From Curvularia clavata (Eukaryota), in contig CP089277.1 in assembly GCA_023920165.1 (NCBI GenBank), positions 3,534,001 to 3,598,000 of the forward strand: a stretch of 64,000 nucleotides of DNA. The letters are read 5' to 3'. Both the position numbers and the translations under genes were made by a program. The notes under the pieces are model-generated. The model searched no databases. It saw nothing but the letters and a program-made list of their open reading frames with translations, and was not told where the DNA came from. Below are positions 26,755 to 56,275 of this stretch, piece by piece (the first letter of the stretch is position 1; every line of letters begins with the position of its first letter).

Positions 26755-27195
26755 CGTGAAATTGGCAAGGGAGAGAAGATACAGAGACTGGAAACAGATT
26801 GCACGAGCAGAAGAGGGGCAGATATGGTGCCGGCTGGACGGCGGATATTTCAATGGCGCCTGATCATGTGCAGGGCCACGGTCAATATGATGCAGACGGC
26901 GAGGACCCCTCGGTCCATCTCGCTGCGACGTGAGACGAGCGCGAGCGAGGGCAAGGCACAAGGCTGCATGGTTGGCAGAGGCTGGACAGGGCAGACGGGT
27001 GGTGGTTCACATCGGCATTGCACCGAACGCGCCCACCCGAGCAGACGACGCAGCCAATCACCGTCGGCAGCCCGACGCTGTACCGAGCCGGCCAACATCT
27101 GGGGAAGGGTCTGAGCGCATGGGCGGGGCTGACTTCGGTGCTCGCTCTGCCGAACTTTCGCGCACAGCTGCACGTCGACAGTCGCTTCATCCGCC

Positions 27196-33019: not shown

Positions 33020-33202
33020 AGTGTGTACGGAGAGGGGGTGTGAGGACGGGTATGCGGGATGGGATGCTGTCAATGGGAAAAGAAATCATGTGCGCTCCAA
33101 GGGGGATGCTCGATTTCGAGATATGTTTGCACGTATGCTTACAAATGCTACGAGCGGGACTATACACTAGAAATGACGTCATTACGCCTGAATGGGTATC
33201 TA

Positions 33203-34560: not shown

Positions 34561-34815
34561 TATATCGAACTGACCGTCGTTGTGGTAGACATAATCGCGA
34601 ATGAGATACGAAGTTAAACAATCAACTGGTAGGGTCAGTTCCCATGCCCAAAGTGAAGAGGTTGGGTATCGATTTACTTTTGACAACACCATCATAGCAT
34701 TGTCTAACCATCGGACATGCTGACATTAGGACCTGGGCTGAGGCACCCTCTATTGAAAATCTAGTGTAGCTGTGGAGGTGGCCGCGAGTGCTTGTAACTC
34801 CTGAGCGTAATACTT

Positions 34816-35706
34816 TCAACCTTCCCACCTCTGTGCCTCCTTGTTGTAGCCTATCAGCTGGAGGTCAATGTTGAGCGTCTTGAGCATCATATCCATAGTA
34901 AACGACTAGCGTCAGTTAGCGGACTGTTCAATGCTGCTGATTGTGATTATGTCGCTCACGTCATTCGTGCTCTTGAATGTCTCTTTCTCCTCTTCTAACC
35001 CCTCATTTTCCCCGTCCAGCTCAGCATACTGGTCGTAGGCATCCTCCGAGACCTCTCCATTTTCCTTAGCCTCCTGGAATCTTTCGCGCTCAGCTTCAAT
35101 CTCCTCTCGGTCCCATCTCATCTGCCGTTGCTTAGCCTCTTTTTCGCGTTCCTGCCAAGCGCCTACCCCGCCCAACCTGTTGACCCGGTCCCTAGTGACG
35201 CCAAAAAGCTCTTCGGCTGCTGCACGACTTGCCGTGCGCCATTTATCTATCAATGCGACAAGGTCATCGTCCTTTGTAGACGTAGCGAGTGTTTGTGCCT
35301 GTGTGAGCATCTGTATTTCATTGCGCAGCTGCATTATCTCGCATGCGACCGAGGGTTTGGAAAATTTGTTTCTGGATCCTAGTCGCAAAGGTGTGGAGGG
35401 CTTTGAAAGCGATATGGGGGGTTTCGATACCTTTGATGTCGAAGATCCTGGCGTTGATGTGACTGTTGCAGAGCACGTGGAAATGGTTGGCTGCCCCCCA
35501 TTGCTAACGGATGCAGTTGATTTAGCTGGAATGGTGGTCGGTTCTAATGTTTCCTTGGTGGGTACAAGTATTTCAGGCGGGTCTGAAGATGGCGGATCGT
35601 CGCCGATGCTAGGCTTCAATGGTGTGCGAAAAGGAGACTTGAATGGTTTATGGAGCGTTTTGGCAGCTTCGTTTAACCGGCGGCGTTTCGATTGCGGGTC
35701 CGACAT
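34816..35706 (-). CDS. SFR1: Sfr1/Mei5 (Swi5-Sfr1 / Sae3-Mei5 recombinase mediator subunit)
   Basis: SKRRRL..LHKPFKSPFRTP; coiled coil; LVALIDKWRTASRAAAEELF..RVNRLGG; last exon SFTMDMMLKTLNIDLQLIGY..W. These match the Mei5/Sfr1 family as I recall it. Confidence 0.82.
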
Positions 35707-36383
35707 CTTCGCAATTGAATAACCATTTGTATTGCCAATGGTGTTCGCTGCCGCAACATGAGTATTAGTGGAGTAGAGCGATGTCATCAATCGATTGTCG
35801 TGTCGCATTTCTTGGCAGACGCGCTTTCGCGCTGTCACGTGGGATGCACAAAAACAGAAAATATAAGATGGATGAGAAGATGGTTGTTTGCGTATATCTT
35901 GAAGGAGCGAAGTCGGACTTTCATTACAAAAAAAAACCCCCCAAGAGCTGAGACGTCCATTGAGCCTACCACAAGGGTGTTGACCAGATTCAAACCTGAA
36001 ATAACGACACTAATATTTGTACTCACTATACTCATCGGGGTCTATAACTTGCGCAAGCTAGATTATTATTGAACAATATGCGAAGATAGACTGTGGTGAT
36101 ACAATTCTTGATCTAAGGAGCAAGTATTTGGTTTAGTGATAAACTAGCACGAATGGGTAGAGATGAAAGAAGAATATATCAGAAAGTATGGTTGCACTAA
36201 GCCTTTTTTGGTAGAATCGTGTTAAAAACTTGGATTTTGGTTCTGGAAAATGGTCTCAAAATAGCTCAGAAGGATGATACAACTCTCACTCGGTTCGAAA
36301 CAATAGGCAATGAATCAGGAATGACCAGAAAAGTACAGTGTATCGAGGCAAAAAAGTGCATCGCCCCATAGTTAAAGACACTC

Positions 36384-37475: not shown

Positions 37476-39226
37476 TCACGCCTTGTCTCCAGCAACTATT
37501 TCGAACCCGTGTAGCACTTCTATGTTGGCACGACATTTTGTCTCATAATGTTTGATGCCGGCAACGTAGGCTATGATCTCCTTCTTTTTGCCTGGAACGT
37601 CAGCACCATTCCACCAGCTGTCGGTATAAGGGAATAGAGTCCCTTCAACTAGTGCGTTCAGATGCGTCCTCCATTCAATCTCAGCGTCTCTTGTTGCCTC
37701 GATCGATTTGGCACCAGCTTGTTCTACCTTTGTGATGATATCCATAACCAGTTCCACTTGAGTCTCAATGATGGGAATGGCATTTGTGAATGGAGTTGGA
37801 GCTTGGGGAGAGTATGGAATAAACATATTGGGGAACCCTGAAACAGTGATACCCATGTACGTTTTTATTCCATCGGCCCAGACATCCTTCAGATCGACTC
37901 CATCCTTACTCTTAACTCCGACACGAGTGATGGAACCTGTAATTGAATCGAAACCCGTCGCTAATACCACGGCGTCAAGCTCGTATTCAGTCCCATCAGA
38001 CATGACTACGCCCTTCTTCGTGAAAGATTGCAAAGGCGACTTGCTGAGATCGTGAATGTGCACGTTGCTTTGATTGAGAACGTCGTAATAATCCTGTTCA
38101 AGGGCCATTCTTTTGGTGAGGAAATAGTATGGCTTTTGCTCTGGTGCCATGATTGCGAATTTTGCAGGATCCGTCAGGCGTGGTGCGACCTTGTTTCTCC
38201 AGTATTGATACGTAGCTTCATTTGCCTCTTTGCTACGAAAGAGGTCTTTGTAGGCCAGCATTCCATAAGAAAAACCACCTTGGTCCCACGTATAGGACCA
38301 GTGACGTTCTCTTTCCTTAGGGGATACATCATTCAGAGATTTATCATTGGCTGTGACCGGAAAGCCGGCATGTGACTCTCGGGCGGCTTTTAGCAGGACG
38401 GGATAAAAACGCTTCATTACGTGCTGCTCTTGTACACTCAAAGGGCGTTGACCCAAGGCGCAGCAGTAACTTGGGCGGCGCACGAAGACCGTGAGTTCCT
38501 CTGCGATCTTGCCGAGCGACTCTGTGAGTTGTACTCCAGTTGATCCTGCGCCAATCACTCCAATCTTCTTACCCTTGGCGCTAAAATCTTCACGCCATGC
38601 GGTTGAATGGAAAACCTCGCCCTGATACTCGTTTAGACCTGGAAATTCGGGAACATTGGCCCGGTGGAGTAGACCTGCACCCAGAATCAAGTACCTTGCA
38701 GATGCAATATGGCCTTGTTGAGTTTTGACGTTCCAACGATTTTTGGATTGGTCCCAGCAAGCGTCATTGACTCGAGCATTGAAATAAGTATCTCGTCTCA
38801 AGTCGAGTACCTTATCGACATGAGCAATATACTTTCGTAGCTCTTCGTGTCCTGGAAAGCGCTCCGAGAATGTCCAATCCCGATATACTTCGGGTATATT
38901 GAGTTGATAGAAGGGCACCTCGCTGTCTACACGAGCGCCAGGATATCTTCGGTATTGTTAGTTTTGTCTAAACTTATCCTAGAGGGAAAAGACTCATACC
39001 TATGAAAATTCCATACTCCTCCAAAATCACTGCTTGCTTCCATACATTTCACGGTTAATCCTGCCTTTCTGAGGCGATGGATAGCCGTGATACCCGAAAA
39101 GCCCGCTCCAACAACCAGAGCGTCGACTTCAATGGAAGGAGTGTGCCCGTTGGGTTGGCCAGAGTCATGCGCTCCTTTCCCAAGCACATCTCCTTTAGTT
39201 ACTGGAATAGTTTCGTGTGCAGCCAT
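37476..39226 (-). CDS. Type I Baeyer-Villiger monooxygenase (FAD/NADPH, cyclopentanone/cyclohexanone monooxygenase-like)
   Basis: VVGAGFSG; GGVWNFHRYPGARVD (BVMO fingerprint, across intron ~38948-38999); YQGEVFHSTAW (FxGxxxHxxxW); IGAGSTG; TKR with catalytic Arg; LATGFD; SWWNGA. Confidence 0.93.
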
Positions 39227-40733
39227 GTTGTAAAGAGACGGCTCAGGTGAAGCAAAGGTATCTTGGTGGGAGCGAACTATACAAAAATGAATCTCTGGCA
39301 CCTCATTTGGGCTGGTTGCAGTCGTCCGATGATCGGTCCATGCTTGGAAATTTTCTTTTGGCAAGAAAGAATTTGCATTCGACTTCTGCAGGATCACCGT
39401 CTGCGTAACATGCATAGAACGCATAACTCGTAGTGAGCTCACATACCAGACGGAATTTCCAAGGATGCAAATCGTATTCTAACTTTTTTAGGTCGTAGGC
39501 GCTTTTCTATCATTGGCTATAATCGATGTTGATGTACTTCGACAAGAATCCATTTCGATCGTTACTGCTCAGCCATTGACAGCACAGTATGAAGTTTTGA
39601 TGGTTACGTGTAGTGATACAGTGTCGTCATTAGTCACACCCGATTTGGCTTGTTGCATTGAGTTAACCGACTTGGCATTGCACGTCTGACAAATCTGTAG
39701 GATAATGGATCCTGATAAATGCCAGACTATAGACGGATGACATGCATGTTTCGAAGTCGGTCGCCTCTTCTTTTCACTTGAATGGGTTGGATATGCGGGT
39801 GGCTCTCCTATCGTATGCTTGTCCATCATCAGGCCCTCAATCCTTATCGACTACTTGCTGACAGGAATTCGAGCACAGGCCCTCGTTGAATGAAACATCC
39901 AGCTCGTCAATGATGGTCCGTGTTCACGATCACCAAAATCGGCTTACCCAACTCACATCTTGACCGTTGAACGAAAGATGCTGCATACTACACACGACGA
40001 CGTAGGATCCCTCTAATGTCTCAAAGGCGAAGTTTGACCAATGACTTTGCGCATTATCGTCGCACAGGTCAGCGCTGCAGGCCAACCACAAACACGGCGT
40101 TGCAGATCCACAACAGGGTCTGGATCGGGCCGAGGGAACTGCTGGAGCATAGATCCAGTTCTCTTTCAAGTTGCATTTGATGAACAGTGGCTATATTACC
40201 AGAAACCGTTATGCATTCGAAGAACACCTATCACAAAGAGTTGCAATACTAGGAGAGAATCCTCTCGATGCATCTACACTCTACCCATGACTTTTGCGAT
40301 CCAAAACGGAATATCAGTTGACCGCCGAGGAACGAACGATAAGGATACAGTGCGCCCAAATCCCAAGAAAGTCTCCCACATGGAAATCGTATGGCGTCAA
40401 GCTTGCAGGAACAGCTGAAGAATGAGGTGCTTAGCGCTGACGCTGCCTAGGACGCCTATTATACCATTGTGAAAGGAGGCAATGGTGGTTTATGTGGAGA
40501 CTTGCTCGGGAACTTACAATGTGTTGACACCCGGACTTGTCAATCATTGTAGCCAATAGCAAAGATTATACTTCCCTAAGTGAAACCATTTTATGAGATC
40601 CACACCCACAGAACCAGTGACCCACTTACAATTTTACCTTATGCCATGTTAGGAAACCGTTCCTCCAGGCTACGAAATTCGAATTGGATGTTATATAGAG
40701 AGCTACGGACTTGCTCGTGGCTTCGGAACGATC

Positions 40734-43700
40734 ATGAACGATACAGAGAAAGAATCAGAAATGTCAGGCAAAGAATTCAAGTCAGAGCCCATTGCCATTG
40801 TGGGCGTCGGTTGTCGCTTCTCGGGCTCGGCGACTAACCCAGAGGCCCTTTGGGATATGCTCAGTAAGGGTAACACTGGATGGACCAAAACCGCAAGTCA
40901 TCGCTTCAACCTGAATGCCTTTTGGCATCCAAATGGTGACAACAAAGGCACAGTAGGTCGTACCAACAACAGCGAAATCCATGGCCTTCGACATCTGACT
41001 TGTTTCTAGTTCAACGCGAAAGGCTTCCACCTCCTTAAACAAGACCCAGCCTTGTTTGACAACGACTTCTTCGGCATTGGCGGCCTCGAAGCTAAGGCTA
41101 TGGACCCTCAGCAACGCATCCTGCTCGAAGTTGCCTACGAAGCATTCGAGAATGCAGGATTATCTATGGAAGAGCTAAGGGGTTCACAAACAGGCGTTTG
41201 GTGTTCAGTTTCGAACGCCGATTACGAGTCGATTCTGGCTCGAGATCCTGATATCTCTCCCGGGTAAATTCATCTGAAGATTATTTCTGGATCATGTAGC
41301 TGACGGAAATAAAAAGTTACCGAATGACTGGAACTGGTAATGCAATTGTTTCGAATCGCATTTCGTACCTATTTGATCTTCGGGGTCCCAGCATGACCAT
41401 TGACACATTTTGTTCCAGTACTCTGGTTGGGCTCGATGCAGCTGTCAAATCGATCCGAGCAGGCGTAGTCAAGCAAGCCTTCGTTGGTGGATCCAACCTA
41501 TGTTTGGATCCTGAGAGAACTGGAGTTCTTTCCTCTATGTCGTAAGTCTTGAACATGTATTTCTATCATTTACTTTGGCTCACCTGTCTCAAATAGATTC
41601 ACATCGCCAGACGGCCGCTGTTATGCCTTCGATCCACGCGCTAGCGGATACGGTCGAGGAGAGGGTGTAGCGGCCGTCATTCTGAAACCACTCAGTGCCG
41701 CCTTGGCTGACGGCGATTCTATCAGAGCCGTGATACGAGGCACAGGTGTAAGCTCAGATGGTAAAACCAACGGTATTACATTGCCATCAGACTGGGGCCA
41801 GAAGCAAGCTTTGGAAATGGCCTACAAGGATGCAGGCCTCCGTCCACAAGACACGTATTTTGTGGAGGCACACGGTACGTATTAACAGCCAAAGTAGTTG
41901 CTGAAGACAACTCTGATTGTATCTGTCTAGGCACGGGAACAAAAGCGGGTGATCGAACAGAAGCTACTGTATGGATGGATACCTTTCTGCGCGGCCGATC
42001 GAAAGACCTGCCATTGGTTGTCGGTTCCGTGAAGGCAAATGTCGGTCATACTGAACCTACGGCTGGTCTTGCGGGACTTTTGAAGGCCGTTTTAGTTCTC
42101 GAACAGGGTGTTATTCCAGCCACACCCACACACAAGTCTCTCAGCCCAGATGTCGCCGCTGTACTTGGGGATTCTTTTGTCCAGGTAGGTTACGCCCTTG
42201 AGTCAACTTGTTGCTGATTAATGTCTTACTTTGACAAACATAGATTCCTACAAAAAAAACACCTTGGCCCAAGGGCATACTCAGAAGAATCTCGGTCAAT
42301 ACGACTGGATATGGTGGCACCGATGCCCATGTCGTTGTCGATCACCCAGAGGAGGTTGTACCGTCCCTGCAAAACGGCTCATCTCCTGCTGCTGTTACCA
42401 TAGGTCCCAAGCTTTTCACCATCTCTCACCGTCGTGCAGACGCACTGAAAGAGACAGCAAATGCATTGCGCCGGTCCTTGGCCCAGAAGTGGGCTCGCAA
42501 CAGCGAGACACTCCTGTCTGATTTGGCATTCACACTGTCCCGTCGATCTCACTGGGATTACCGAATGTATTTCTCCGCTTCGACACAGACAGAGCTCCTT
42601 GAGAACCTTGATCAGATTGCCAAAGGTGTTAATCGCCTGGAAACTGCAGGCCCACAGCCCGCTTTGTGTTTTGCATTCACTGGTGTGTTGTCGTCTCCCA
42701 GGACAGTTGCTTATATTTACTTACATTGAATTTAGGTCAAGGTGCCCAATGGCCGAAGATGGGACTGGATTTGATGCCACATTATCCAATCTTTGCAGAG
42801 TCGATGCGAAGATCGGAGGCAGAGTTCCTGCGCTTGGGCGCGACATGGCGCTTGCTTGAGGAGCTGGAAAAGCCAAAAGACGAAACATCTATCAACCAGG
42901 CCTGGCTTTCTCAGCCATGCTGTACAGCTGTTCAGGTCGCTTTGCTGGACCTCCTCAGTTCCTGGGGAATAGAGCCACAAGTTGTTTGCGGTCACTCAAG
43001 TGGTGAAATTGCCGCTGCATATGCTGCGGGAGTCCTAACTGCCGGCGAAGCCTTGCAGGTTGCCTATTTCCGTGGCTTTCATGTTGAAGCTCTTAGAAAA
43101 TCGAGGCCAGATCTGAAGGGGGCTATGCTGGCAGTCGGTGTCTCAGCTGAAGATGCGCTTACATATATCGAACCAGAAGACAAGGTTACTGTGGCATGCT
43201 ACAACAGCCCACAGAGTGCTACTCTGTCGGGTGATGTGGATGATATCGTTCGTGTCAAAGCCAGGCTTGATGAAAAAGGTATTTTCGCTCGCAAATTGGA
43301 GGTTGACGTTGCATATCACTCTGCTCATATGAAACACGCCGAGGCTAGTTACCACGCAGCAATGGATAACCTGAGCCCGAAACGCTGCAAACACGGCGTA
43401 CGACTGTACTCATCTGTGACGGAGGAGCTTTTGGACGGCATCGAGATGGGCGCATTGTACTGGACACAAAACCTCATATCATCTGTGCGCTTTTCTCAGG
43501 CTCTTGGTAAGATAATTACAGAAAGAGCTACTTGGTTGAGCCCTGGTCATTCTGGAAAGATTATGGTTATCGAAGTCGGACCTCATGCTGCTCTGAAGGG
43601 TCCGATTACGCAGATCATCAAGGCTGCTGGCGCGCCGGGCCCTTTAATCTACCAGAATGCGCTGAAAAGGGGCGAGGAAGGCTCGAAATCGGTACTGCAA

Positions 43701-46700
43701 CTCGCCGGGCAGCTATTTCAGCGGGGTGGTGTGATCAACTTCCGAGCAATCAATGAGCCAGCTTCAGACCATCCTAAGCCCAAGCTACTTGTTTCGCTGC
43801 CGAACTATCTGTGGCATCACGAAAGAGCTCATTGGGCGGAATCCCGGCGGAGTGCCGCGTATAGGTTCCGAGCATTCCCTAAGCACGATATTTTGGGAGC
43901 GCCAACCATGGACAGCATCCACGACGAGCCCACTTGGAGAGTGTATCTCCGCAGCTCAGCCATTCCCTGGGTCAAGGGACACGTCATCCAGGATCAGGTC
44001 GTCTACCCGGGAGCTGCATACGTTTCTATGATTGTCGAGGCCTTGAAAGAACGTCACATGATCCAGAAACGTCGATGGAAAGGTCTTACACTTCATTTCC
44101 GTGACGTTCAGTTCACTCGAGTGCTGATCGTTCCGGATACGGAAAATGGGATCGAGACTATCACATCATTAAGGCCCATGTCTCCGTCTACTCGGGAATC
44201 CTCTGCAACTTGGTTTGAGTTCCGCGTGTTTACGCTAGCAGCAGATGGGGAGTCGTCTACCGATCATTGCCGTGGTATGGTCTCTATTAGCTCAACACCG
44301 GTTGCAAACGTGCTTCCAGAAACCACCCCTCCACATGACCTCACAAGATTCTCGTCCGAGGCCCTCTATCGGGAGCTGCACTCTCTTGGGGCTAAATACA
44401 CTGGACAAGTGGCGCAATTGAACGAGATACGAGGAGGACATGGATTTGCTAGATGCGACTTTGCAATCCCGAATACCAGCGCCGACATGCCTGGAGGTAT
44501 TGAGCAGCCATGTCTGGTTCACCCCTTGACCCTTGAGGCAGCTTTCCAATCACCATTCGCGGCATTGAAACTAGGCGACAGATTAAAGACAATTTATCTC
44601 CTCGAGGGCATAGAAGAGCTCTACATCTCCACCGATATTCCCTCTCAACCGGATACTGCGTTGAGGGCCGAGACTCATGTGGAAAATTTTGGCATCTTGA
44701 AGGCTCGAGCCGGAGTGACAATCACGGACCCCACCCAGCCTTCCCAGTCAGTTTACATCAGAGCCAATGGCGTACGTTATGCTGGACTCGAGCAGCAAGA
44801 GAAAACCCCTGAAGGAGTGGATGAAGAACAAGTTTGCCATTGGATTGACTGGGTTCTTGACCCCCTACATTCTACTCCTCAAGCCCTAGCCCAGTGGATT
44901 CGTCAAACAGCCACCACAGTTGATCCAATTATGGCTAAGAATGAGTCGATTGTTGAAAGGTACATTCAGGCTGCTGTCAAGCATTTGCAAATGACATGCC
45001 CAGAACCAAACACCAGGAGTAATACCTTTTATGATCATGCGGCGCAATTGAGCAAATACCTAGAGCTAGTTGCAGTACTTGAAAACAGTACAGATCTTCA
45101 GGAAGACTTATTGGCCGCAGGACCGCTGGGCGGGACAATGCTAGACTTATTCACTCAGGTCGTCAAAGGCGCAGACACTGGGCTACGATCGCGAGCTAGA
45201 GGAAGCCTGATGAAGAGCATTTCCCGCGGGAATGTCGCATTTCAGCGTTCCATTCATCACATCGGTTCATATCTCAGGACCTTGCGGCTAAAAAGACCGA
45301 GTCTTCGGATATTGACCATTGGCCCCGACTATGAAGGGTTGAAATCCATCGTCGATAATTTGATGATATCTTCCAATTTCGCAAACGGCCTGAAAGATGA
45401 AGACTGGAGCTGCACCTATGCTGTTACTATGCCAACTGGCGGGACACCCAGTTCCGAGCGTGACGAGTCGTCATCGGAATCTTCAGAATCGTCACAATAC
45501 GTGAAGTTGGATATTATGGATTCATATGCATCCCCCAATCTTCAACCAGGAACATTTGATGTGCTGCTTATCCCTTCCTTCTTGAGCCATTCGATTCCGG
45601 ACCTGACAAGTGCCCTACCGCGTCTCAAATCTCTGTTGAAAGATCAAGGGGCCATGGTTTTTGTGGAGGTTACCGAGCCAACCACCAAATGGGAATTGAT
45701 CTCAACCAGCCTCTCCAACGAGAATCCCGCACTTGCCAACGCCAAATTTATGAAAGCTGCCCAGTGGGAAGAGCTGTTGATTGACAGTGGTTTCACTGAT
45801 CTTTCTGAAATACGGGATCTTGAGACGGCTGAACATGAAACAAGTATTTTCATTGCTCGAGCGCTACCCTCCAACTCCATAACGAGCAACGCCATCACTG
45901 TTCTTCTCCCATCAGAGGAACTTGATGAATTAGCTCTCAACATTGTCTCCCGACTTCGATCTCAAGCCAAGGGCGTCTCAATCACAGCGGCTTCACTCGA
46001 AAGCGCTGTAGTGAGCGATGGCACCTTTATCATCTTGCTGGAAGCATTCAAGCCATTCTTGGAGCACATAACACCGAGGTCATGGGAACTACTGCGAGAT
46101 CTCATGACCAGGGCGAGCCGCGTGCTATGGGTCACAAACAAGGGGGTTTTGGATAGTTCAAATCCTGCCATGAGTTTATCTCATGGTTTCACTCGGAGTC
46201 TAAGGATTGAGTTTCCCAACTTACAACTTATTACGCTAGACATTGATGTCGACTCCAAATCGCCAGCGCAGAATGCCGATAGCATCCACAAACTCTATAC
46301 TGCACTTCTCGAAGGCAACGTACCAGTCCCCAAACGGTCCGAATGGGAGTGGGAATTTGCTGAACGAGACGGCGCTGTTTTTGTGCAGCGTGCTTTCCCT
46401 CATGCTACTGGAACCGAATTTATTGAGAACTCTACATCGTCCTACCACCCGAGATTGGAGAAATGGGGTGCAGATTCTCGGGCTCTTGGTTTGAGGATCC
46501 GCACAGCGGGCATGCTCAGTACTCTGCATTGGGTCGATAGGGCCGAACACAGCAAAGCTGTGGACAACAACCAGGTTCGAGTCAAGATGCAGATCTTCGC
46601 TACCAGCCCCCTCGATATAAACACCATCAACGGCGAGTCGAATGGAGAACCCAATCTCCTCACTCAAGGAGTCGGTGTAGTCGTTGAGAAGGGTTCGAAA

Positions 46701-48685
46701 GCGACAGATTTCTCAATCGGCGACGTTGTGTTTGCCTACGAACCAAATGGACTAGCACTCTACAGCAACATTGGCATTGACAAAGCCGTTAAGGTTCCCC
46801 AGGGAGTGGTTATTGAGCAAGCTGTCACTGTACCTCTGTCATATGGAATCGGGTTTTTCTGCCTTAAAAACCTAGCTGGTATGCAACCCGGCGAGTCAGT
46901 CCTGATTCACGGGGCGGCAAATCATGTCGGGGAAGCAGCGATCACCCTATCGAGACATTTGGGAGCCAGGAATATCTTCCTCAGTGCAAGCACGCAAGAT
47001 GAGCGTGAATTGCTTCAGCAGCGGTGGAATATTCCAGCAGTCAACATTTTCTCCGTGGAGGATCTGGAGGGCGCACCAGAAATGCTCACTAAGATTAACG
47101 GCGGTAGTGTTGACGTTGTCATTAACTGTGTTCCTGGTCAAGCAACAGACGGGATCTTCTCCATCGTCGCACCTTTTGGCCATCTGATCGATGTCAGCAA
47201 CCAGGATCCGCGCCGCACTGGAAGGCTGCAAAGCAAGAACCATGCTTCTTACACAAACTTCAACATGGCAATTTTGGCAATGGCTAAACCTGCATTGGTC
47301 AAAGAAGTATTCAAGACGGTGCTCAACCTGGTCAACTCGTCCAAAGTCCAGATATTGGAGCCTCTCCCTGTAGCCCCGCTCACGAAAGCCCAGGAAGTCT
47401 TCCAAGCTTTGTTATCCGGCTCGCAGCAGAAGAGGCTTTTGAAGGTTGAGCCAGGCATGTGGCTTATGACCCAGCCCACCCGACCTGCGCAAGCTACGCT
47501 TAAACAAGATGCGTCATACTTTGTGGTTGGTGGTACAGGCGGTCTTGGTAGGGTTATCATCCGCTACTTGACTAAGTTGGGAGCCAAGCGCATCATCACA
47601 CTTTCGCCGTCTGGAAACGACAAACCAGAAGCCAAGGAGCTTGCCGAAGAGCTCCAACAGCAAGGAGTAGAGCTTGTCAATGTTAAGGGAACAGCTAGTG
47701 ATCTAGAGAAACTCAAGAAAATCGCTCGAGAATCTGGCTCACGACCCGTGCGTGGAGTAATCCATGCAGGTACCGTCTTTGAGGTAAGTTTCAAGCCGTT
47801 GTTCGCCTTCCAAGGATCAGGTTACTAACAAATGTGCAGGATGGCCCCTTCGAAGCGACGACCCACGAGCAGTGGACTCACGGAATCGAAGCCAAGGTAG
47901 CTGGAACAGTCAGTATCCACGCGGTCTTTGGCACGACAGTTGATTTCTTCACGATGCTCAGCAGTGTTGTTGGTGTCCAGGGGACATACGCACAGAACGC
48001 CTACAACACGGGAAATGCTTTCCAAGATGCATTTGCACGAGCCTGCGCTGCTAAAGGACTACCTGCTCGTTCGCTTGATCTCAGCATGGTGGCCGATGAA
48101 GGTAGAGGAGCATCGGCGGAATCGACAGAGTTTTTGCGCCGTCATGGTTTGCGCCAAGTCGACATTGATACTGTCACCACGGCTATCAGCTTCTCTATCT
48201 GCCATCCAGTTGCCGCTAGTCCTGCTGAAGGACAGATTCTCGTCGGTTTCCGACAAGAATATCCCGATTCAGGCTCGAAGATTGCCGCCTTACAGCGTCC
48301 TGATGCACGTTTCTCCCACATCTGGTTCAAGCCTGTCACAAATCAAGCCGCAGCTGTCAAGGAAGGAGAGTTTGACGTTCAGTCCGCACTCAAAGAAGCT
48401 ACAACTGCTGAGGCCGCCATACAGGCGACTTTTACATCACTGAAAGGAGTAGTGTCGCAATTGTTGGATGTGGAGGAGTCAACAGTTTTGCCAGAACGAA
48501 GTTTCATTAGTTACGGCTTGGATTCTCTTACAGCTATGGAGCTGAGAAAGCACGTAAACTCTGTCTTGGTAAGTTCAGTACAGATGTTAGAGATTATGAA
48601 CCCCATGCCACTTTTGCAGTTCGCTGAGTTGGCTGCAAGCCGATCTGCGCTTGTTGGTGAGGGTCTTTTTGGGAAGAAAGAATAG
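40734..48685 (+). CDS. Highly reducing iterative type I polyketide synthase, KS-AT-DH-(MT0)-(ER0)-KR-ACP
   Basis: Frame is intact across 7 GT-AG introns. [111 protein letters not shown]. No release domain. Confidence 0.96.
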
Positions 48686-49099
48686 ATTGTATTAGGGGCT
48701 GCTCTGCTAGGTTTTAGTTTAGAACCTTCCTAGTTTAAAATGAGTACAGTGCTTGTGTCATTGAGAATATCTTGACGTCTTAATAATTTTGTGAAGTTCT
48801 GCCACGAACTTGGAAATCTCACCATGTTTGTGCCTTCCTTTCACCACCTACATCAACCCTTGCCGTGTCCATCCTCTCCTTCTTTCAATGATTTCAACCG
48901 CAAGGAATCGCCGTATCCCATGTAAGCTCTGGTAAGCGGGAATTTGCTGTCAGCCGTCAGATCGGCCTTCCTTAGCCGTCTCAACGAATCCTTCGGTGTC
49001 AGCTTTCAAAAAGCATATATACCGCATTCCCTCTGTTTTTCTTCATTTATTCTCCTTCAATCTCATTACATTCAGTTCCCGGTCACGATTGTATCCATC

Positions 49100-50512
49100 A
49101 TGAGCACTACGAAGACGTTGGTTCGCCCCACTGACCCATCATTGGGAGACCCCGATGATTTGTCTCCTCTCGACCAGTACATGATTCGGATCATCATTCC
49201 AATCATGTGTGCGTTCAAAGTCGAGCGAGACGACCTTCGCCCGACCATTGTGAAAAATTTGAAGGCCGGATTGGCACGCACTATCAACGAAATGCCTTTC
49301 ATCGCGTCAGTAATAGTCGCCGACGACGAAGAGCGTGGGACATATAAGTTACACTTTGATGAGGAAGAAGCGGGCGTCTGGTTTCACGAGCGTGAATGCC
49401 TCGATTATTCTTTCGAAGAAATGGAGAAGAAGAGATTCTCTTTCTCCTGCTTTCCTGTCACCACCTTCGTTCCAGAACCAAGAGGACACTCTGAGAAGTG
49501 CCCAGTTGTCACAGTTCAGGCTGTTTTTATCAGGGGTGGAGTTGTCATTACGTATAACGGACATCACGGGATCATGGATGCTCAGTCTTTGGGCACCTTT
49601 GCCTCCGTTTGGTCTCGCAACGTCCAGGCTGTATCCGAAGGCTATACGATACCTCTAAGCGAACAATACAAAGCCGAAGACCTTGACCGCACCATGTTCG
49701 ACACTGCCTATAGCCCGCGTCCATTGGCAGATTTCCACACTTACAGGCCTGGCAAAGAAACCAAACTCACCGCGGAACGCAATGAGATTATACGTCTCAG
49801 CTCGGCTGGAGACCATTTGAAACTGCATGAGATCGTACCGATCTCGCATTGGTTCATGACGCAGGAGCAGGTCGACGTCTTGAACCAGAGTGTTCGAGAT
49901 GCATTCCCTAACGAGCCGGGCGTGACTGAAGCTGCCCTGTTCAGCGCCCTGATCTGGAAATCTATCGCCCAAGCTCGCAGTCTCGCTGAAAGTGGCATTG
50001 AGGAGTGTGCACTCTTCACCTCGACAAATGTCCGCAGGATGGTAGACCCCCAGCTCGATCTAATGTACCCAGGCAATGCCATTGCCTTAGCCCGAGCTGA
50101 TGCGACCACCGAAGAACTTTACGATAAGGATGAGCTGAGGGCACTTTACAAGCTTGCAAGAAAGACATCGGACTCTATCGACGAGTGGACCGCGGACGAA
50201 CTCTACGATCTCATGGGGGTAGTACAGGAAGCCGACGACGTGGTCAACCTGATGCTACCTGATCTCGACCACAGTTTCTACATCAGCCAACCTGCTCGAT
50301 TCGGTAACCTTTTGGGCAAGTCTCAGTGGGGAAGTGAGTTGGGTGCCATCAAAGCGTTTCGATTTGCATTCCCACCGCCGGTGAATGGATTTGCGTGCCC
50401 ATTACCGGCTTTAGGTGGTGGCATGGATTTGATGATTTGGATCAATGAGGAGGTACAGGCAAAGCTGAAGACGTTGGAATCTTGGACAAAGTGGGTGACG
50501 CCTGTTGTTTAG
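49100..50512 (+). CDS. Tri101/BAHD-type (transferase family) O-acyltransferase
   Basis: Intronless. LSPLDQYM N-terminal motif, PVVTVQAVFIRGG, catalytic HHGIMD (HxxxD), NVRR..YPGNA, and WGSELG as a fungal variant of DFGWG. Confidence 0.88.
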   Translation: MSTTKTLVRPTDPSLGDPDDLSPLDQYMIRIIIPIMCAFKVERDDLRPTIVKNLKAGLARTINEMPFIASVIVADDEERGTYKLHFDEEEAGVWFHERECLDYSFEEMEKKRFSFSCFPVTTFVPEPRGHSEKCPVVTVQAVFIRGGVVITYNGHHGIMDAQSLGTFASVWSRNVQAVSEGYTIPLSEQYKAEDLDRTMFDTAYSPRPLADFHTYRPGKETKLTAERNEIIRLSSAGDHLKLHEIVPISHWFMTQEQVDVLNQSVRDAFPNEPGVTEAALFSALIWKSIAQARSLAESGIEECALFTSTNVRRMVDPQLDLMYPGNAIALARADATTEELYDKDELRALYKLARKTSDSIDEWTADELYDLMGVVQEADDVVNLMLPDLDHSFYISQPARFGNLLGKSQWGSELGAIKAFRFAFPPPVNGFACPLPALGGGMDLMIWINEEVQAKLKTLESWTKWVTPVV

Positions 50513-51071
50513 AGATCACCATACACGTATGGTACTCCATACCATGGTTCTCAGCTCGAACGTATGGGTGTTGATCTATACGCGACTTACGCCCTATTCA
50601 AAAAACTAAACCTGTTCTCCACGTTTCCATGTCCCGTTTTTCCTCGTTCTTTTAAGATCTTGTCTTATGCATGTCAGCTTACTTTAGTACAATTTAGGTA
50701 ATTCTGTCACACTTTTCCCGGCCCAATGACCATCGTGGCCCACCCCGGCTGGATATGCCGCGTTGGTGGCGTAGCTAGCGGCGTGCAAGATTCGGCTGGC
50801 AGCGCAAGCATGCGAGGTAAGGTCCTGAGAGGCGAAATTAGGTGACTTGCATCAGTCTTGATGACGTTTTTTCTTGGCCGGATAATGCATCAAGCCCATG
50901 CTGGTTCTTCATCTGCAGCCCGCAGCCTAGGTAAATCCCGGCGCTAAGCCAAGATCCCCGGAGCTAAGGGTCAATCGAGCAGGGTCCACGTGTGTCAACG
51001 CTTAAAAGTATATCGAATGACACTCTGCTGGTAGTAGTAGCTTGCGCCCTCGCAGTTCATATCACAAGATC

Positions 51072-53471
51072 ATGGCAGAGCTTGACGATCAAACCGAGTC
51101 GCTGGTACAACAGCTCTACGACGCGTGGAGTACACATGCAGACCCAACGTCTTACCTCCACCTTCGCGACCAACTCTTAAGCCGACGTGAGCGAGTTGAC
51201 ACATGCATAGCGACCTTGAAGACTGTCATTACGATTGCGTGCCCCCAGATCAATGAGACGGAACGCTACTTCGATCCAAAATGGGAAGAGTTGTTCGCCC
51301 TGGCGGAGTCCATTGAATCGAGCGCTGAGCAAGAGGACGGTAACGCCGGAAAAAGAAAACGCTCATACAATGAAGTTCACCGTTTACGGAATCTGGCCAT
51401 AGTCTCGGCGCTATGGTCACCTAGCGTGGTCCGTCACTATGGGTGGAACACTGCTGCCCAAGGATGTCTGCGGCTCTTAAAGACATGCGCTTTACGATTC
51501 CCGGACTTCGGCAAGCAATTTTGCCCCTACATCAACCGCGTTCTCCTTGACAGGCATTGCGAGGCTATTACATCTGGTCATTTAAAGACGCTCAACGAAG
51601 CCCCGCTCCAATGCTACAGGGACTTGAACATCGTGATTGGAAGTAACGTCATCCCCGACCTGGAAACAGAGGAGTTGTGGGTAACTAGCGCCAATGGAGC
51701 GGTGCCTGTTGATTCAAATGGTCGTCTTCTTAAAGACGTGAGGCCATATCATTTCCAGCAATACCTCTTGCGTCGCGACCGCTACGGCATGCTCGTCGCT
51801 AGGGGTGAGTGCCAAGATCCTCCGATGATCACCAATCAGCAGTCCAACTTCTCACTCGCCCCTACGACGTTTGAAGAGTTCCTCGCACAGGAAGATGGTT
51901 TCCTTGCCACCGTCCCCGGATCAACGATCTCATCGGTCAACATGTTCACACCACCAGGGATGGATTCGTTTCTGGATGCCCTTACGTTTAATTACCAGCC
52001 CGAACCTCTATCCTATGGTTTAAATGATGCTTCAACCATGACCTTCCCTAGCGATCATGCTGTTGATCTGGCATTGACTCCGAATGATACACCCGCCTCA
52101 GACAATACCTCTAGCTCTGACGTCGCTGAGCTCTATCATGCAGAGAGTAATCAAACTTCTGGCATGAGCAGTGGGACTAGTACTAAAAGCAGAAAGAGGT
52201 CACAGGGAGACGATGCTGCCAGCCTCTCTAGAAACATGAAAGCGGTGCGGCTTCCAGCTAGTCCTGCAAACTCACGTGCCCTAGTTGGTGCACCCGCCAG
52301 CCCATCGAAGGGGAAGTCGACAATGGAGGATGAGTTACGCGATAAATACAACAAGATGTTGTCCAAATATATACAACGACTCAGTGCAGAAGCTATGTCA
52401 GGTCACCATGAGCGACGAGTGCGGGCACAGTGGCTCGCCTCTGACACCAAATGGGCTAGAATTTGGCAACTTTCTGGATCCAAGGGACTACTACCCGGTA
52501 CTGCTCCTTCCAAAGCCGATTGTGATGTTTTGTATTGTTCTGCAGATGACATGCTCGAAGCAGCACGATCAGGCGAAGTTTTTCAGAAGCCTGTGGTCAT
52601 CAAGGAATCGTTCTCTGATGCGGATATGCACAACTACGAACGCTTCTTGTCGCTGCTCGAGGATGCTTCGAGTTCTGACGAACAGGTGGAAGTTCGATGC
52701 CTTGACGTAAAACACTCAATGCATGAAAGCCTTGGGAAATTCACAGCCTACCTCCGCTCGCACCGCGAACTTTTGGATGGACTATGGATGTCGACTGCTC
52801 GCAGTGTCGCCAAATGTCATCGCCCGCTCTTTACCATGTTAAACCGGTTTCGGCTTTTGGAGAGTCTATCTGAAGGTCTTAACAACCATTCCTCGAATTC
52901 GGCGCCCTCGCCGTTGCTGAAGGCTATGTCTGTCAGCTTCAACACTATCTCTTTTCCTGGTGCCTTCTCCGGTGCAAGTCTCAGTACGCCAGCAGGGAGC
53001 TGGCAACGTAACCTGTCTGGTGTGAAGCTCTGGGTATTTGTGCCGGAGGCTGAAGTGCCTCTAGATGAGCTTACTAGCTTAACTAATGAAGAGAATGTCT
53101 GGCTACCGCGAGGGAAACAGCGCCTGGTTGTTTTAGAAGAAAATGATGTCCTGTTCGTTCCTCCTGGGCTTCAACTCGTGCAGGCTTGGCATACGCCGAC
53201 AATTTGCTTGACTGAGCAAGCGATGCTGTGGGATGATCTCAGTATCTTACCGATCGTGGAAAGCATACATTGGTGTCGCAAGAAACAAGTCATGCAAGAT
53301 GATCGTGTTGCACAACAGCTTTTTCGCATAATAAACAGCCTTGACTGCCTGCTCAGGGAGCAGCCTGATCGATTCAGGGGTAATATGGGTCGGGACGAAT
53401 TCATAGGTCGTTTTCGTGAAGCTAGCCAGTCATTACTTGCTTCCTGTTCAAATTTGGGTAGAAAACAATAG
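51072..53471 (+). CDS. ~800 aa protein of unknown function with a C-terminal JmjC/cupin-like domain lacking iron ligands; probably nuclear
   Basis: Intronless ORF. KPVVIKE, WQRNLSGVKLWVFVP and VVLEENDVLFVPPG..VQAWHTP follow the JmjC scaffold. Basic NLS-like GKRKRS and KSRKRS; acidic/Ser-rich central region. Confidence 0.65.
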   Translation: MAELDDQTESLVQQLYDAWSTHADPTSYLHLRDQLLSRRERVDTCIATLKTVITIACPQINETERYFDPKWEELFALAESIESSAEQEDGNAGKRKRSYNEVHRLRNLAIVSALWSPSVVRHYGWNTAAQGCLRLLKTCALRFPDFGKQFCPYINRVLLDRHCEAITSGHLKTLNEAPLQCYRDLNIVIGSNVIPDLETEELWVTSANGAVPVDSNGRLLKDVRPYHFQQYLLRRDRYGMLVARGECQDPPMITNQQSNFSLAPTTFEEFLAQEDGFLATVPGSTISSVNMFTPPGMDSFLDALTFNYQPEPLSYGLNDASTMTFPSDHAVDLALTPNDTPASDNTSSSDVAELYHAESNQTSGMSSGTSTKSRKRSQGDDAASLSRNMKAVRLPASPANSRALVGAPASPSKGKSTMEDELRDKYNKMLSKYIQRLSAEAMSGHHERRVRAQWLASDTKWARIWQLSGSKGLLPGTAPSKADCDVLYCSADDMLEAARSGEVFQKPVVIKESFSDADMHNYERFLSLLEDASSSDEQVEVRCLDVKHSMHESLGKFTAYLRSHRELLDGLWMSTARSVAKCHRPLFTMLNRFRLLESLSEGLNNHSSNSAPSPLLKAMSVSFNTISFPGAFSGASLSTPAGSWQRNLSGVKLWVFVPEAEVPLDELTSLTNEENVWLPRGKQRLVVLEENDVLFVPPGLQLVQAWHTPTICLTEQAMLWDDLSILPIVESIHWCRKKQVMQDDRVAQQLFRIINSLDCLLREQPDRFRGNMGRDEFIGRFREASQSLLASCSNLGRKQ

Positions 53472-54353
53472 AAGGCCTTTGAGGCGGTCATAGACATGTT
53501 CAAGGTACATAGATAGCTCAGGAGATGGTGGGAAATAGGCAGCATACGAGATTTCTTGCTTACAATAGGCCTCATAGAGATCTCTCTGGTTTATGTACTG
53601 CCAGAATATAAATTTTCTTCCAAACCGTGCCACAAGGTTGCAGTGTTACACTACATGGTGTATGTATGTGCTGGCCTCTCACCCGAAATCAACCTCAACA
53701 CCGAGCAGCCCCCTTGACAAGGAATCGAAATTTGGCCTCGTACCGCATGTTTTCTGCAGCATAGGCCATGGTCACCACCTCGGTTGTTTTCGATGTTGCT
53801 TGTTTGGCCGTTTGGTTGACAAATCAACTTGCCCTCTGCTGGCCTTAGCGAGACGCTTCTTACATCCTTTAGTACACCGCATATTAGCGTGGGGAAGTGA
53901 TCTGCTTGCTGATAGACTAGGGTCATACATACTCTGACCTCGAGGCTGCGGGCCGATGACGCCTCTCATCTTGTCGAGCGTCAACGGGTACACCCGGTCT
54001 GACGTGAGCAGAACCTTCACAAGCCACACATTATCGTCACGTCTTTTGTCCACTGAGTATTGTATGCAATCAGTTGCATATCTACGAGACCAACAATGCT
54101 AATTAGATGGTATGTATTATCAGTCACGGTGCCTTAGTCTTGCCAACACAGACCAGTCCAATCTCCACTCATCAAACCCCTGTGCAATCTGGTGGCGTTG
54201 GATATTAGCCAGCCATCCCTATTTGCTTGAGAATGTTGTTTGTTCCTGGTAAATGTCAGCATTGTTTGTCAGTGAATTGAAGCCAAGCCGTTTTTCAATG
54301 AGATCATGTAGAACAGCACTCGTCTGGGAAGAACGTGCGCAGCGCGGTGTTAA

Positions 54354-54370
54354 TGCTAACCCCGTTAGCA
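54354..54370. promoter_or_regulatory. Perfect palindrome TGCTAAC-ccc-GTTAGCA ~210 bp upstream of the MFS gene; candidate TF site
   Basis: Inverted repeat read directly; the half-site GCTRAS recurs upstream of the other cluster genes. Function is inferred. Confidence 0.4.
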
Positions 54371-54577
54371 CACTGTTCGGGCTAAGGTGCTCTCCGAGCG
54401 GAGACTTTCGACTGAATGCGTGAGATAGACCTCAGTCGAGACTAAACTACATGAGGTTAGCGTCTCTTTACTTCTTGTCTATTATTTACTCTACACCTTC
54501 CCACCTCTTTCCATCCTGCTGCCAACTGCTTTTTCACTCATTCCTTACGATATTGTCCTGTCGTTGTCACCGAAAAC

Positions 54578-56275
54578 ATGTCCAAGTTCATCCGCGACAC
54601 GAGTTTCGCACAACTCGTCCGCGTGATTACACAGAAGCGAGTTCTGCAATACCCAGAAGAGCAACCCGACTTCCAGCTGCCAGAATCATACGTTAAAGTC
54701 CTCGAAGCAGCTGAGCTACGCTCAAAGGACGGGTCTTTGTCTGCCAGCTCGCAAAATGGCAACGAAAACGTTGCAATTTCCGACTCTGCCCTACCAGATG
54801 AAGAGGCTCCTGCGCAACCCAACGAAAAAGCAGAGAATGAAAATCCATTCGAGCCCAGATTGTTAGATGATGGCACCATAATTGTCAATTGGTACAGCTC
54901 TGATGATCCGGCAAACCCACAAAATTGGACGACTACCCAGAAATTGCTGCCAACGGTGGTTGTGAACCTCTACACTTTTGCTGTCTACCTTGGCTCCTCA
55001 ATCTTCACTGGAAGCTACCTCGACGTGATGAGCAAGTTCAATATTTCTCAGCAAGTCGTTTCTCTCAGTCTCTCGATGTATGTTCTGGCTTACGGTGTGG
55101 GTCCTCTGCTCTGGTCACCTCTGTCTGAAATTGCGTCTCTTGGTCGAGGCCCGCTGTACATCGTTACCTTTGCGATATTCGTCATTCTTCTCGTTCCCAC
55201 AGCGCTGGTCGACAACGTTCCTGGGTTAATTGTCCTCCGATTTCTCATTGGATTCTTTGGAAGCCCTTGTCTCGCTACTGGTCCAGCGACTTTGGGTGAT
55301 ATGTTTGCCTTCGATAAGCTTCCATACGCATTAGCAACTTGGGCTCTCGTCGCCACCAGCGGTCCCTGCGTTGGTCCTTTGCTTTCTGGATACAGTGTGC
55401 CAGCTACGAATTGGCGATGGTCTACTTGGGAGTTACTTTGGCTGAGTGGTCCACTCTTCATAGCCTTCTTTTTCCTCGTTCCCGAAACATCATCTTCTAA
55501 TATCCTACTTCGACGCGCTCAGCGATTGCGTGCTCACACAGGCAATACCTGCTTCAAGAGCCAGGGCGAAATTGATCAGCACAAGCTCCACCCTCGAGAG
55601 GTTGTCGCTGAAGCTCTTTGGCGTCCAATACAAACTATGATCCTCGATCCCTCTATTGGATTCACAGCACTTTACGTTGCTTTGATTTATGGGATCTACT
55701 ACTCATTCTTCGAGTGTTTCCCTCTCGTCTATGGACAGGGATATGGATTTTCACTTGGAGCACAGGGTCTCATCTATCTCGCCATCTTCGTTGGAATCAG
55801 TGCCGGTCTAGGAATGTACCTGACCTGGATTCGCATCACCTGGGAGCCCGCCGTACGTGCTGGAAACATCGGAGCCCCGGAACGTCGCCTCATCCCTGGG
55901 CTCTTCGCATCATTCATGCTTCCTATAGGACTCTTTCTCTTTGCATGGACAGCAACTCCTGACATTCACTACATCGTTCCCACCATCGGAATCGCGATCT
56001 TGAGTGGCGGCATCTTCTTAATTATGCAGTCTATCTTTCTATACCTTCCTCTCAGTTATCCGAAGTACGCGGCATCTGTATTCGCTGGAAATACCGTTGC
56101 TCGATCAGTACTTGCTGCCGCCATCGTCCATGCTTCTCAACCCCTATATCACAATCTCGGGGTAGACAGAGGCGTCACACTGCTAGGAGGATTGACAGTT
56201 GGTTGCATCGCTGGTATCTTCGCCCTTTACTATTACGGTCCTGCATTGCGGGCAAGATCCAAGTTTGCTCCTTGA
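54578..56275 (+). CDS. MFS multidrug exporter, DHA1 family (Flr1/Caf5-like)
   Basis: VNWYSSDDPANPQNW, YGVGPLLWSPLSE..GR, LRFLIGFFGSP, PET motif, PERRL; about 12 hydrophobic segments. Confidence 0.94.
   Translation: MSKFIRDTSFAQLVRVITQKRVLQYPEEQPDFQLPESYVKVLEAAELRSKDGSLSASSQNGNENVAISDSALPDEEAPAQPNEKAENENPFEPRLLDDGTIIVNWYSSDDPANPQNWTTTQKLLPTVVVNLYTFAVYLGSSIFTGSYLDVMSKFNISQQVVSLSLSMYVLAYGVGPLLWSPLSEIASLGRGPLYIVTFAIFVILLVPTALVDNVPGLIVLRFLIGFFGSPCLATGPATLGDMFAFDKLPYALATWALVATSGPCVGPLLSGYSVPATNWRWSTWELLWLSGPLFIAFFFLVPETSSSNILLRRAQRLRAHTGNTCFKSQGEIDQHKLHPREVVAEALWRPIQTMILDPSIGFTALYVALIYGIYYSFFECFPLVYGQGYGFSLGAQGLIYLAIFVGISAGLGMYLTWIRITWEPAVRAGNIGAPERRLIPGLFASFMLPIGLFLFAWTATPDIHYIVPTIGIAILSGGIFLIMQSIFLYLPLSYPKYAASVFAGNTVARSVLAAAIVHASQPLYHNLGVDRGVTLLGGLTVGCIAGIFALYYYGPALRARSKFAP

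What the first reader, a model, noticed from the sequence alone, without database searches (positions are those of the whole stretch)
37476..56275. Orphan five-gene polyketide cluster: BVMO / HR-PKS / BAHD acyltransferase / pseudo-JmjC protein / DHA1 exporter
Seen: five intact genes bounded by a housekeeping block on the left and a gene desert on the right, with the BVMO and PKS divergent from a shared 1.5 kb region. There is no trans-ER, hydrolase, P450, second backbone enzyme or Zn2Cys6 regulator in the window. Established: HR-PKSs without a release domain can be off-loaded by a partner acyltransferase (CazF/CazE, AzaB/AzaD, LovF/LovD), normally onto a core made by a second synthase. Inference: here the acceptor is made elsewhere, is a primary metabolite, or derives from BVMO oxygen insertion. 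The likely product is an exported unsaturated polyketide ester or lactone from a gene combination I do not recognise.
Basis: partly seen in the sequence, partly recalled or inferred. Interest (0 to 1): 0.85.

Follow-up and report, generated by a model that had tools for sequence, protein, structure and literature searches.

The report
Fungal polyketide cluster with dead demethylase
This is a real, transcribed fungal gene cluster of unknown product whose polyketide synthase and acyltransferase are of a familiar kind; its one unusual feature is a histone-demethylase-like protein that has lost its iron-binding residues, stays linked to the two enzymes in distantly related fungi, and may be the cluster's own regulator.

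Summary
All five genes are intact. All 8 predicted introns are spliced out in 3 of 4 laid runs. A tool names the PKS as a Curvularia clavata protein. The PKS keeps KS, AT, KR and ACP, probably DH, and has degenerate MT and ER, so it should make an unmethylated unsaturated acyl chain for the adjacent BAHD acyltransferase, as Tri17/Tri18 do. The unit shown to be conserved is three genes, not five: PKS, acyltransferase and pseudo-JmjC are consecutive in Corynespora and near-consecutive in Rhizodiscina and Zasmidium (three orders). Co-occurrence of BVMO and MFS could not be tested. The JmjC protein has a KDM2/KDM7 fold (Z 21), but 0 of 40 aligned homologues keep the iron triad; its N-terminal domain is as conserved or more so and has no clear fold match. 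A TGTCAGC motif lies in all four intergenic regions (weak support). No characterised match was found, but MIBiG could not be searched. Verdict: an orphan cluster of a known kind with an unusual candidate regulator. Interest 0.45.

The parts
37476..39226 (-). Type I Baeyer-Villiger monooxygenase-like flavoprotein, 565 aa, intron 38947-38999
   Evidence: Pfam FMO-like; best solved relatives 5j7x E 2e-128, 6y48 and 6jdk, the last two named Baeyer-Villiger monooxygenase; intron spliced in 3 runs. Cluster membership inferred only.
39227..40733 (.). Divergent BVMO/PKS region, 1,507 bp; RNA contigs leave only about 39547-39885 uncovered in run X14
   Evidence: TGTCAGC site at 39857-39863 (-)
40734..48685 (+). 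HR-PKS, KS-AT-DH-(MT0)-(ER0)-KR-ACP, 2520 aa, 8 exons, no release domain
   Evidence: equals database protein P0058 except for 17 residues that the database model omits
48686..49099 (.). PKS-acyltransferase spacer with two TGTCAGC sites (48948, 48997); about 70% identical to the same region of L001 and L002
49100..50512 (+). BAHD/TRI101-like acyltransferase, 470 aa, HxxxD (H156, D160) invariant in 13 of 13 rows
51072..53471 (+). Pseudo-JmjC protein, 799 aa: conserved helical N-terminal domain (1-245), disordered Ser/Pro/Thr-rich acidic linker, KDM2/KDM7-type JmjC fold (about 440-799) without the Fe triad (S636, S638, Q704)
   Evidence: TGTCAGC site upstream at 50672
54578..56275 (+). MFS multidrug-efflux-type (DHA1-like) transporter, 565 aa
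   Evidence: Pfam MFS_1 E 5e-33; TIGR00880 E 1e-34, below its curated cut-off; TGTCAGC site upstream at 54254. Cluster membership inferred only.

Best explanation
An expressed, uncharacterised acyl-donor cluster. The PKS builds a short-to-medium unmethylated, unsaturated acyl chain: KS, AT, KR and ACP intact (shown from motifs), DH probably active with Glu for the usual Asp (inferred), MT and ER structural only (motifs and selection pattern shown; inactivity inferred). With no release domain, the adjacent BAHD acyltransferase takes the chain and esterifies it to an alcohol (inferred from family chemistry and strict linkage). I think the acceptor is most likely made outside this three-gene core, with the BVMO as a local oxygen-inserting step and the MFS as exporter (inferred; neither is shown to belong). 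The pseudo-JmjC protein is not an oxygenase (triad loss shown) and most likely acts as the cluster's own chromatin-level regulator in place of a Zn2Cys6 factor (inferred).
For: Intact, spliced genes. Motifs. dN/dS against L001: ER 0.27, MT 0.20, pseudo-KR 0.25 versus KR 0.06-0.11, ACP 0.05, acyltransferase 0.09. Accessions: Corynespora PSN68745/46/47 = PKS, acyltransferase, JmjC in the window's order; Rhizodiscina KAF2098258 JmjC, 260 PKS, 261 acyltransferase; Zasmidium KAK4503140 JmjC, 143 PKS, 144 acyltransferase; Dendryphion KAH7110810/11 and Nothophoma KAL1607597/98 PKS plus acyltransferase; Alternaria rosae KAH6853067/68 JmjC fragment plus acyltransferase. Shared contig lengths link acyltransferase to PKS 22 times, to JmjC 13 times and all three 6 times, among 53, 46 and 62 listed lengths. 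JmjC fold Z 21.4, rmsd 3.8, 304 aligned to PHF2; 0 of 40 rows keep H-x-D/E...H. Precedents: Tri17 ER 'almost certainly nonfunctional' and TRI18 always at or near TRI17 (PMC5897003, passages); demethylase-independent activation of clusters by KdmB/FgKdm5 (PMC6700381, abstract); Epe1 as a JHDM1 homologue that modulates heterochromatin (PMC2442719, passage).
Against: BVMO and MFS were not found in any of 5 fetched loci, which are short; the MFS is alone in its 90% cluster; the best BVMO representatives are 51-53% identical and unplaced. JmjC linkage is not universal: in L002 the acyltransferase is followed by a TIM-barrel gene and a GST, L001 shows no JmjC start in 1,072 bp downstream, and Alternaria alternata-group JmjC proteins (60-64%) have no listed PKS or acyltransferase partner. 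Contig data cannot show co-regulation; run X14 has no MFS cover and little acyltransferase cover. ER domains are also less conserved than AT or KR in outgroup comparisons, and the dN/dS figures rest on one pair. Accession adjacency and contig-length matches are indirect. No product or regulatory role was measured.
Confidence: 0.5

Rival explanations
1. Self-contained five-gene pathway: the acyltransferase releases the chain by intramolecular lactonisation or onto a small primary metabolite, and the BVMO inserts oxygen next to a ketone of that same chain to give the exported ester or lactone.
For: BVMO shares a divergent region with the PKS; all five genes are covered in run X6; TGTCAGC lies in all four intergenic regions; one unidentified gene sits between JmjC and PKS in Rhizodiscina (KAF2098259) and two numbers in Zasmidium, where a BVMO could lie.
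Against: Those intervening genes could not be identified; the motif is not significant after correcting for 8,161 seven-mers; no BVMO orthologue could be placed.
Confidence: 0.22
2. EasB/EasC-type pair: the acyltransferase hands the chain to a peptide synthetase encoded elsewhere, giving a lipopeptide or depsipeptide.
For: Automatic labels call two orthologues 'emericellamide synthase' and two neighbours in the tree cm3B and easB; EasB/EasC/EasD/EasA work this way (PMC3901194, passages).
Against: No NRPS or acyl-CoA ligase among the frames scanned in the window or next to the pair in L001-L005; the labelled neighbours are 34-35% identical over the query; labels are not tests.
Confidence: 0.12
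3. Only PKS plus acyltransferase form a functional unit; the pseudo-JmjC, BVMO and MFS genes are neighbours that travel with a mobile block and have no role in it.
For: JmjC absent downstream in L001 and L002; JmjC homologues without listed partners in A. alternata; BVMO and MFS families are common in fungi (1,041 representatives at E up to 1e-30).
Against: JmjC stays within four genes of the pair through a change of gene order in three orders; A. alternata copies nest inside the linked clade on a longer branch and some are in pieces, as expected after loss of the cluster.
Confidence: 0.11
4. The cluster is already characterised under another name.
For: MIBiG and most subscription journals could not be searched; only 8,000 candidates were scored per protein search.
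Against: Among the best 120 PKS hits the only row I recognised as a characterised enzyme is the squalestatin tetraketide synthase at 28%; none of the listed relatives at 47% or more carries a pathway gene name (two have an automatic 'emericellamide synthase' label); five accession numbers gave no paper.
Confidence: 0.05

Closest known systems
[quoted passage not shown]
   Same: HR-PKS with a non-functional ER making an unmethylated polyenoyl chain; acyltransferase gene always beside it; ester formed on a core made by another pathway.
   Different: Orthology not shown: no Stachybotrys, Myrothecium or Trichothecium name appears among the best 120 PKS hits; no terpene genes in the window; BVMO and pseudo-JmjC are extra.
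Emericellamide EasB/EasC (PMC3901194, passages); beauveriolide Cm3B/Cm3C (recalled)
   Same: HR-PKS without release domain plus acyltransferase; automatic labels on tree neighbours.
   Different: No NRPS, no CoA ligase; MT degenerate here.
CazF/CazE, AzaB/AzaD, LovF/LovD
   Same: Off-loading of an HR-PKS by a trans-acting acyltransferase.
   Different: Those clusters encode the second synthase that makes the acceptor; LovD is another fold (recalled).
KDM2/KDM7 JmjC proteins (PHF2, PHF8, KDM2A); S. pombe Epe1
   Same: JmjC barrel plus C-terminal helical bundle, Z about 21. Epe1 modulates heterochromatin (PMC2442719); its weak or absent catalysis is recalled.
   Different: All three iron ligands lost; no PHD, CXXC or F-box found; a fungal-specific N-terminal domain; the gene sits inside a metabolite cluster; 10-13% identity.
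Depudecin cluster and Dep6
   Same: Small cluster of PKS, flavin monooxygenase, MFS and regulator in Pleosporales (recalled). I recall a JmjC-like annotation on Dep6, which 2 searches did not confirm.
   Different: Dep6 is listed as Zn2-C6 (PMC9934661, table row); none of 40 homologues here has that motif; the depudecin cluster has no BAHD acyltransferase (recalled).

Membership tests
Fungal highly reducing PKS | KS-AT-DH-(MT)-ER-KR-ACP order with KS Cys/His/His, AT Ser, KR triad, ACP Ser | tested here: met
Fungal highly reducing PKS | Functional ER (glycine-rich NADPH motif) | tested here: not met
   Glycines replaced in the 11 closest rows, retained in P0069; dN/dS 0.27. Activity not assayed.
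Fungal highly reducing PKS | DH His/Asp dyad | tested here: inconclusive
   His kept; Glu for Asp in 13 of 13 closest rows; DH as conserved as AT and KR among close orthologues
Type I BVMO | Two Rossmann GxGxxG motifs and the GGxWxxxxYPG fingerprint (definitions recalled) | tested here: met
   5j7x, 6y48, 6jdk at E below 1e-122
Type I BVMO | FxGxxxHxxxW(P/D) fingerprint; Baeyer-Villiger activity | tested here: inconclusive
   Variant with Tyr first and Arg last; activity not testable
BAHD / TRI101-like acyltransferase | Pfam Transferase match and HxxxD motif | tested here: met
BAHD / TRI101-like acyltransferase | DFGWG motif | tested here: inconclusive
   Only the WG is kept, invariant in 13 rows
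KDM2/KDM7 JmjC demethylase | JmjC fold with C-terminal helical bundle | tested here: met
   Foldseek E 5e-11; Z 21.4, rmsd 3.8, 304 aligned
KDM2/KDM7 JmjC demethylase | Fe(II) triad H-x-D/E...H | tested here: not met
   0 of 40 rows, positions set by the weak PHF8 alignment (E 0.6)
DHA1 MFS exporter | MFS_1 and multidrug-efflux profile; 12 membrane helices | tested here: inconclusive
   Profiles hit; helices not counted; no DHA1-specific test
Tri17/Tri18 system | Orthology to Tri17 and Tri18 | tested here: inconclusive
   No reference sequence available; producers absent from listed PKS hits; a Trichoderma cornu-damae acyltransferase of unknown identity is 43% identical
Tri17/Tri18 system | Trichothecene core genes in the genome | not testable with these tools
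   No whole genome held
Emericellamide/beauveriolide-type cluster | NRPS and acyl-CoA ligase in the cluster | tested here: not met
   None among 44 frames
Zn2Cys6 pathway-specific regulator | Six-cysteine motif in the in-cluster candidate regulator | tested here: not met
   0 of 40 rows; no Pfam family on P0001
Any MIBiG cluster | High-identity syntenic match | not testable with these tools
   No MIBiG access

The most novel reading that the evidence does not exclude
The pseudo-JmjC protein is a cluster-dedicated, Epe1-like anti-silencing activator: a dead KDM2/7-type histone-binding domain joined to an N-terminal domain with no clear fold match that recognises the TGTCAGC element found in all four intergenic regions. 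It would define a class of pathway-specific regulators that works through chromatin, replaces Zn2Cys6 factors and moves with the cluster between fungal orders and classes.
Probability: 0.2. Interest if true: 0.75.

Novelty: new variant of a known kind. Interest (0 to 1): 0.45.

Why it matters
Orphan HR-PKS clusters are common, and this one's enzymes follow a known design; its product would be one more polyketide ester from plant-associated fungi. The point of wider interest is regulation. Many clusters lack a recognisable transcription factor and are thought to be controlled through chromatin. A dead demethylase encoded inside a small cluster that is already expressed makes it directly testable whether a cluster can carry its own anti-silencing factor. 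The family has no Pfam match, so cluster-annotation tools pass over it.

Tried and rejected
No whole genome is held, so acceptor pathways elsewhere could not be sought. BVMO search of 50% representatives: best hits 51-53%, none placeable. MFS cluster look-up: single member. Scan of bacterial and archaeal genomes with the acyltransferase alignment: 0 of 29 candidate stretches confirmed. Viral scan with the JmjC alignment: 4 loci with 29-residue matches at E 5e-4 to 1e-3, taken as chance and not used. N-terminal JmjC domain: no usable Atlas hit, no Foldseek match at E up to 0.001, best Z 6.3 to generic three-helix bundles over residues 6-93; this does not show a new fold. Shared-word test on the four intergenic regions was not significant (2 seven-mers; 16 of 100 shuffles reached 2); the second word, AAGAAAA, failed in related loci. 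The two L003 motif copies lie in one short direct repeat and L004 is identical there, so they count once; L005 has none in 1,315 bp. Low or missing cover of MFS and acyltransferase in X14 and X19 contigs proves nothing. The Dep6-JmjC recollection was not confirmed. The lpg cluster (PMC13213483, passages) has a different gene set. PMC8403587, PMC12278603 (with its one supplement held as text), 10.1101/2020.01.31.928846 (supplements closed, may list this family) and PMC10989895: passages searched, this cluster not found. Both trees are quick searches with SH-aLRT only. One flank gene was dropped from the GC3 table because it was read in the wrong frame. No complex prediction was run. Four look-ups of earlier findings gave nothing that bears on this.
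Full report
Observation. The window is fungal DNA. The PKS matches database protein P0058, named Curvularia clavata polyketide synthase, at 100%. Frames and Pfam scans give five genes between 37476 and 56275. Gene models close without stops: BVMO 565 aa with one intron, PKS 2520 aa with seven, and three single-exon genes. Contigs of three runs from three studies skip all 8 introns exactly, and the DNA run laid beside them skips none (4 of 24 listed runs laid). The three runs are RNA only by guess on record, but the spliced joints indicate RNA. Run X6 covers all five genes. Contigs cannot rank genes or show co-regulation.

The PKS. KS Cys/His/His, AT Ser, KR nucleotide motif and Lys/Ser/Tyr, and ACP Ser are intact. 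The MT SAM motif is lost. The ER glycine-rich motif is lost in the 11 closest rows and kept in P0069. Against L001, dN/dS is 0.27 for ER, 0.20 for MT and 0.25 for the structural pseudo-KR, versus 0.05-0.11 for KR, ACP and the acyltransferase (one pair only). DH keeps His and has Glu for Asp in 13 of 13 close rows. The residue before the KS cysteine is Phe in 6 full-length orthologues and in L003 and L004; among the 120 listed hits 72 have Ala, 11 Gly, 3 Phe and 34 no match. That this position gates substrate shape is recalled from bacterial work, not tested. The inferred product is an unmethylated, unsaturated acyl chain. In a quick tree of the AT-DH region (45 rows) the PKS lies in a 12-row clade with support 100, within a wider group holding Trichoderma, Beauveria, Cladobotryum and Metarhizium enzymes. 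The only listed hit I recognised as characterised is squalestatin tetraketide synthase at 28%.

What is conserved. The acyltransferase has only 12 related clusters among 8,000 candidates scored and keeps HxxxD in 13 of 13 rows. Accession numbers place PKS, acyltransferase and JmjC consecutively in Corynespora, and as JmjC, gap, PKS, acyltransferase in Rhizodiscina and Zasmidium. PKS and acyltransferase are adjacent in Dendryphion and Nothophoma; a JmjC fragment and the acyltransferase are adjacent in Alternaria rosae. These taxa span Pleosporales, Aulographales and Mycosphaerellales. Shared contig lengths among listed cluster members give 22 acyltransferase-PKS, 13 acyltransferase-JmjC and 6 three-way links (at most 15 members a cluster were listed). 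In fetched loci the PKS is next to the acyltransferase in 4 of 5, tandem in L001 and head-to-head in L003-L005; the fifth begins 229 bp upstream. Against a fixed block: L002 has a TIM-barrel gene and a GST after the acyltransferase, L001 has no JmjC start in 1,072 bp, and none of the 5 short loci shows JmjC, BVMO or MFS. BVMO and MFS orthologues could not be placed. So three genes are shown to travel together; five are not.

The pseudo-JmjC protein. It has 45 homologues among 8,000 candidates; those with a species name are all ascomycetes. It has no Pfam match. The model's C-terminal half matches KDM2A at Foldseek E 5e-11 and PHF2 at Z 21.4, rmsd 3.8 over 304 residues. The iron ligands, placed by a weak alignment to PHF8, are S636, S638 and Q704; 0 of 40 aligned homologues (40 of the 45) keep the triad, while the 2-oxoglutarate Lys is kept in 29 of 40. 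Residues 1-245 are as conserved as the JmjC domain or more (82% versus 77% in the 21 closest rows, 47% versus 36% in the 11 farthest), fold with mean pLDDT 77 when modelled alone, and have no clear structural match. A disordered acidic Ser/Pro/Thr linker and two basic patches fit a nuclear regulator (inference). A. alternata copies nest in the linked clade on a longer branch, with no listed partner genes and some split forms, which fits decay after cluster loss but does not prove it.

A candidate element. TGTCAGC occurs 10 times in the window, 5 of them in the four intergenic regions (5.6% of the length; nominal p 1.1e-4, top of 8,161 words, not significant after correction). It is kept in the aligned acyltransferase promoters of L001 and L002 and occurs in the unalignable divergent promoter of L003 (chance of at least one 0.03), but not in L005. 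This is weak support for co-regulation of all five genes.

Mechanism. Most likely the PKS makes a polyenoyl chain and the acyltransferase esterifies it to an alcohol, as Tri17 and Tri18 do (PMC5897003 and PMC7354583, passages). I place the acceptor outside the three-gene core, with BVMO tailoring and MFS export as unproven additions, and the pseudo-JmjC as the local regulator (0.5). Rivals: a self-contained BVMO-dependent ester or lactone (0.22), hand-over to a distant NRPS as with EasC (0.12), passenger genes (0.11), an already characterised cluster (0.05).

Novelty. Ten literature searches and passages of the papers named found no description of this cluster or of a JmjC-only in-cluster regulator; the library lacks most subscription journals and MIBiG. 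Demethylase-independent activation of clusters by global JmjC proteins is known (PMC6700381, abstract), and I recall, unconfirmed, a JmjC-like annotation on Dep6. The enzymes are of a known kind; the candidate regulator makes it a variant. Interest 0.45; the regulator reading has probability about 0.2 and would merit 0.75.

Noticed in passing
window 39886-40733: RNA contigs of X6 and X14 (two studies) run from 39886 into PKS exon 1. This 848-nt stretch holds 20 upstream ATGs: a very long leader under translational control, or an overlapping non-coding transcript.
   Followed up: partly
P0205 (Hyaloscypha bicolor, Leotiomycetes): A partial acyltransferase is 93% identical to the Corynespora one over 258 aa; Rhizodiscina and Zasmidium copies, from different subclasses, are 89% identical. 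A hint of horizontal transfer, with no housekeeping control.
   Followed up: partly
window 37476-56275: GC3 of cluster genes is 0.48-0.57 against 0.55-0.70 in 9 flanking genes.
   Followed up: partly
window 25609-29813: L-rhamnonate dehydratase divergent from a Zn2Cys6/Fungal_trans factor, probably an RhaR-like pair.
   Followed up: partly
window 33000-35000: AT-rich stretch with a RIP-like dinucleotide pattern (TpA/ApT about 1.3) and a helix-turn-helix relic at 33022-33468, probably a decayed transposon.
   Followed up: partly
window 34912-36009 (-): Frame with no Pfam or NCBIfam match; resembles an Sfr1/Mei5-type repair protein by recall only.
   Followed up: no
window 47840-48685: The public model P0058 omits 17 residues of the last exon relative to the model built here.
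   Followed up: yes
L003 9565-9678: A direct repeat of about 47 bp, 66 bp apart, in the divergent PKS/acyltransferase promoter; each copy holds TGTCAGC next to CGG triplets, as Zn2Cys6 sites often have.
   Followed up: no
P0459, P0460: Acyltransferases of Trichoderma ceciliae and T. cornu-damae are 42-43% identical to the window's; whether they are Tri18-like is unknown.
   Followed up: no
window 7013-8591 (-): Tyrosinase-domain gene among housekeeping genes.
   Followed up: no
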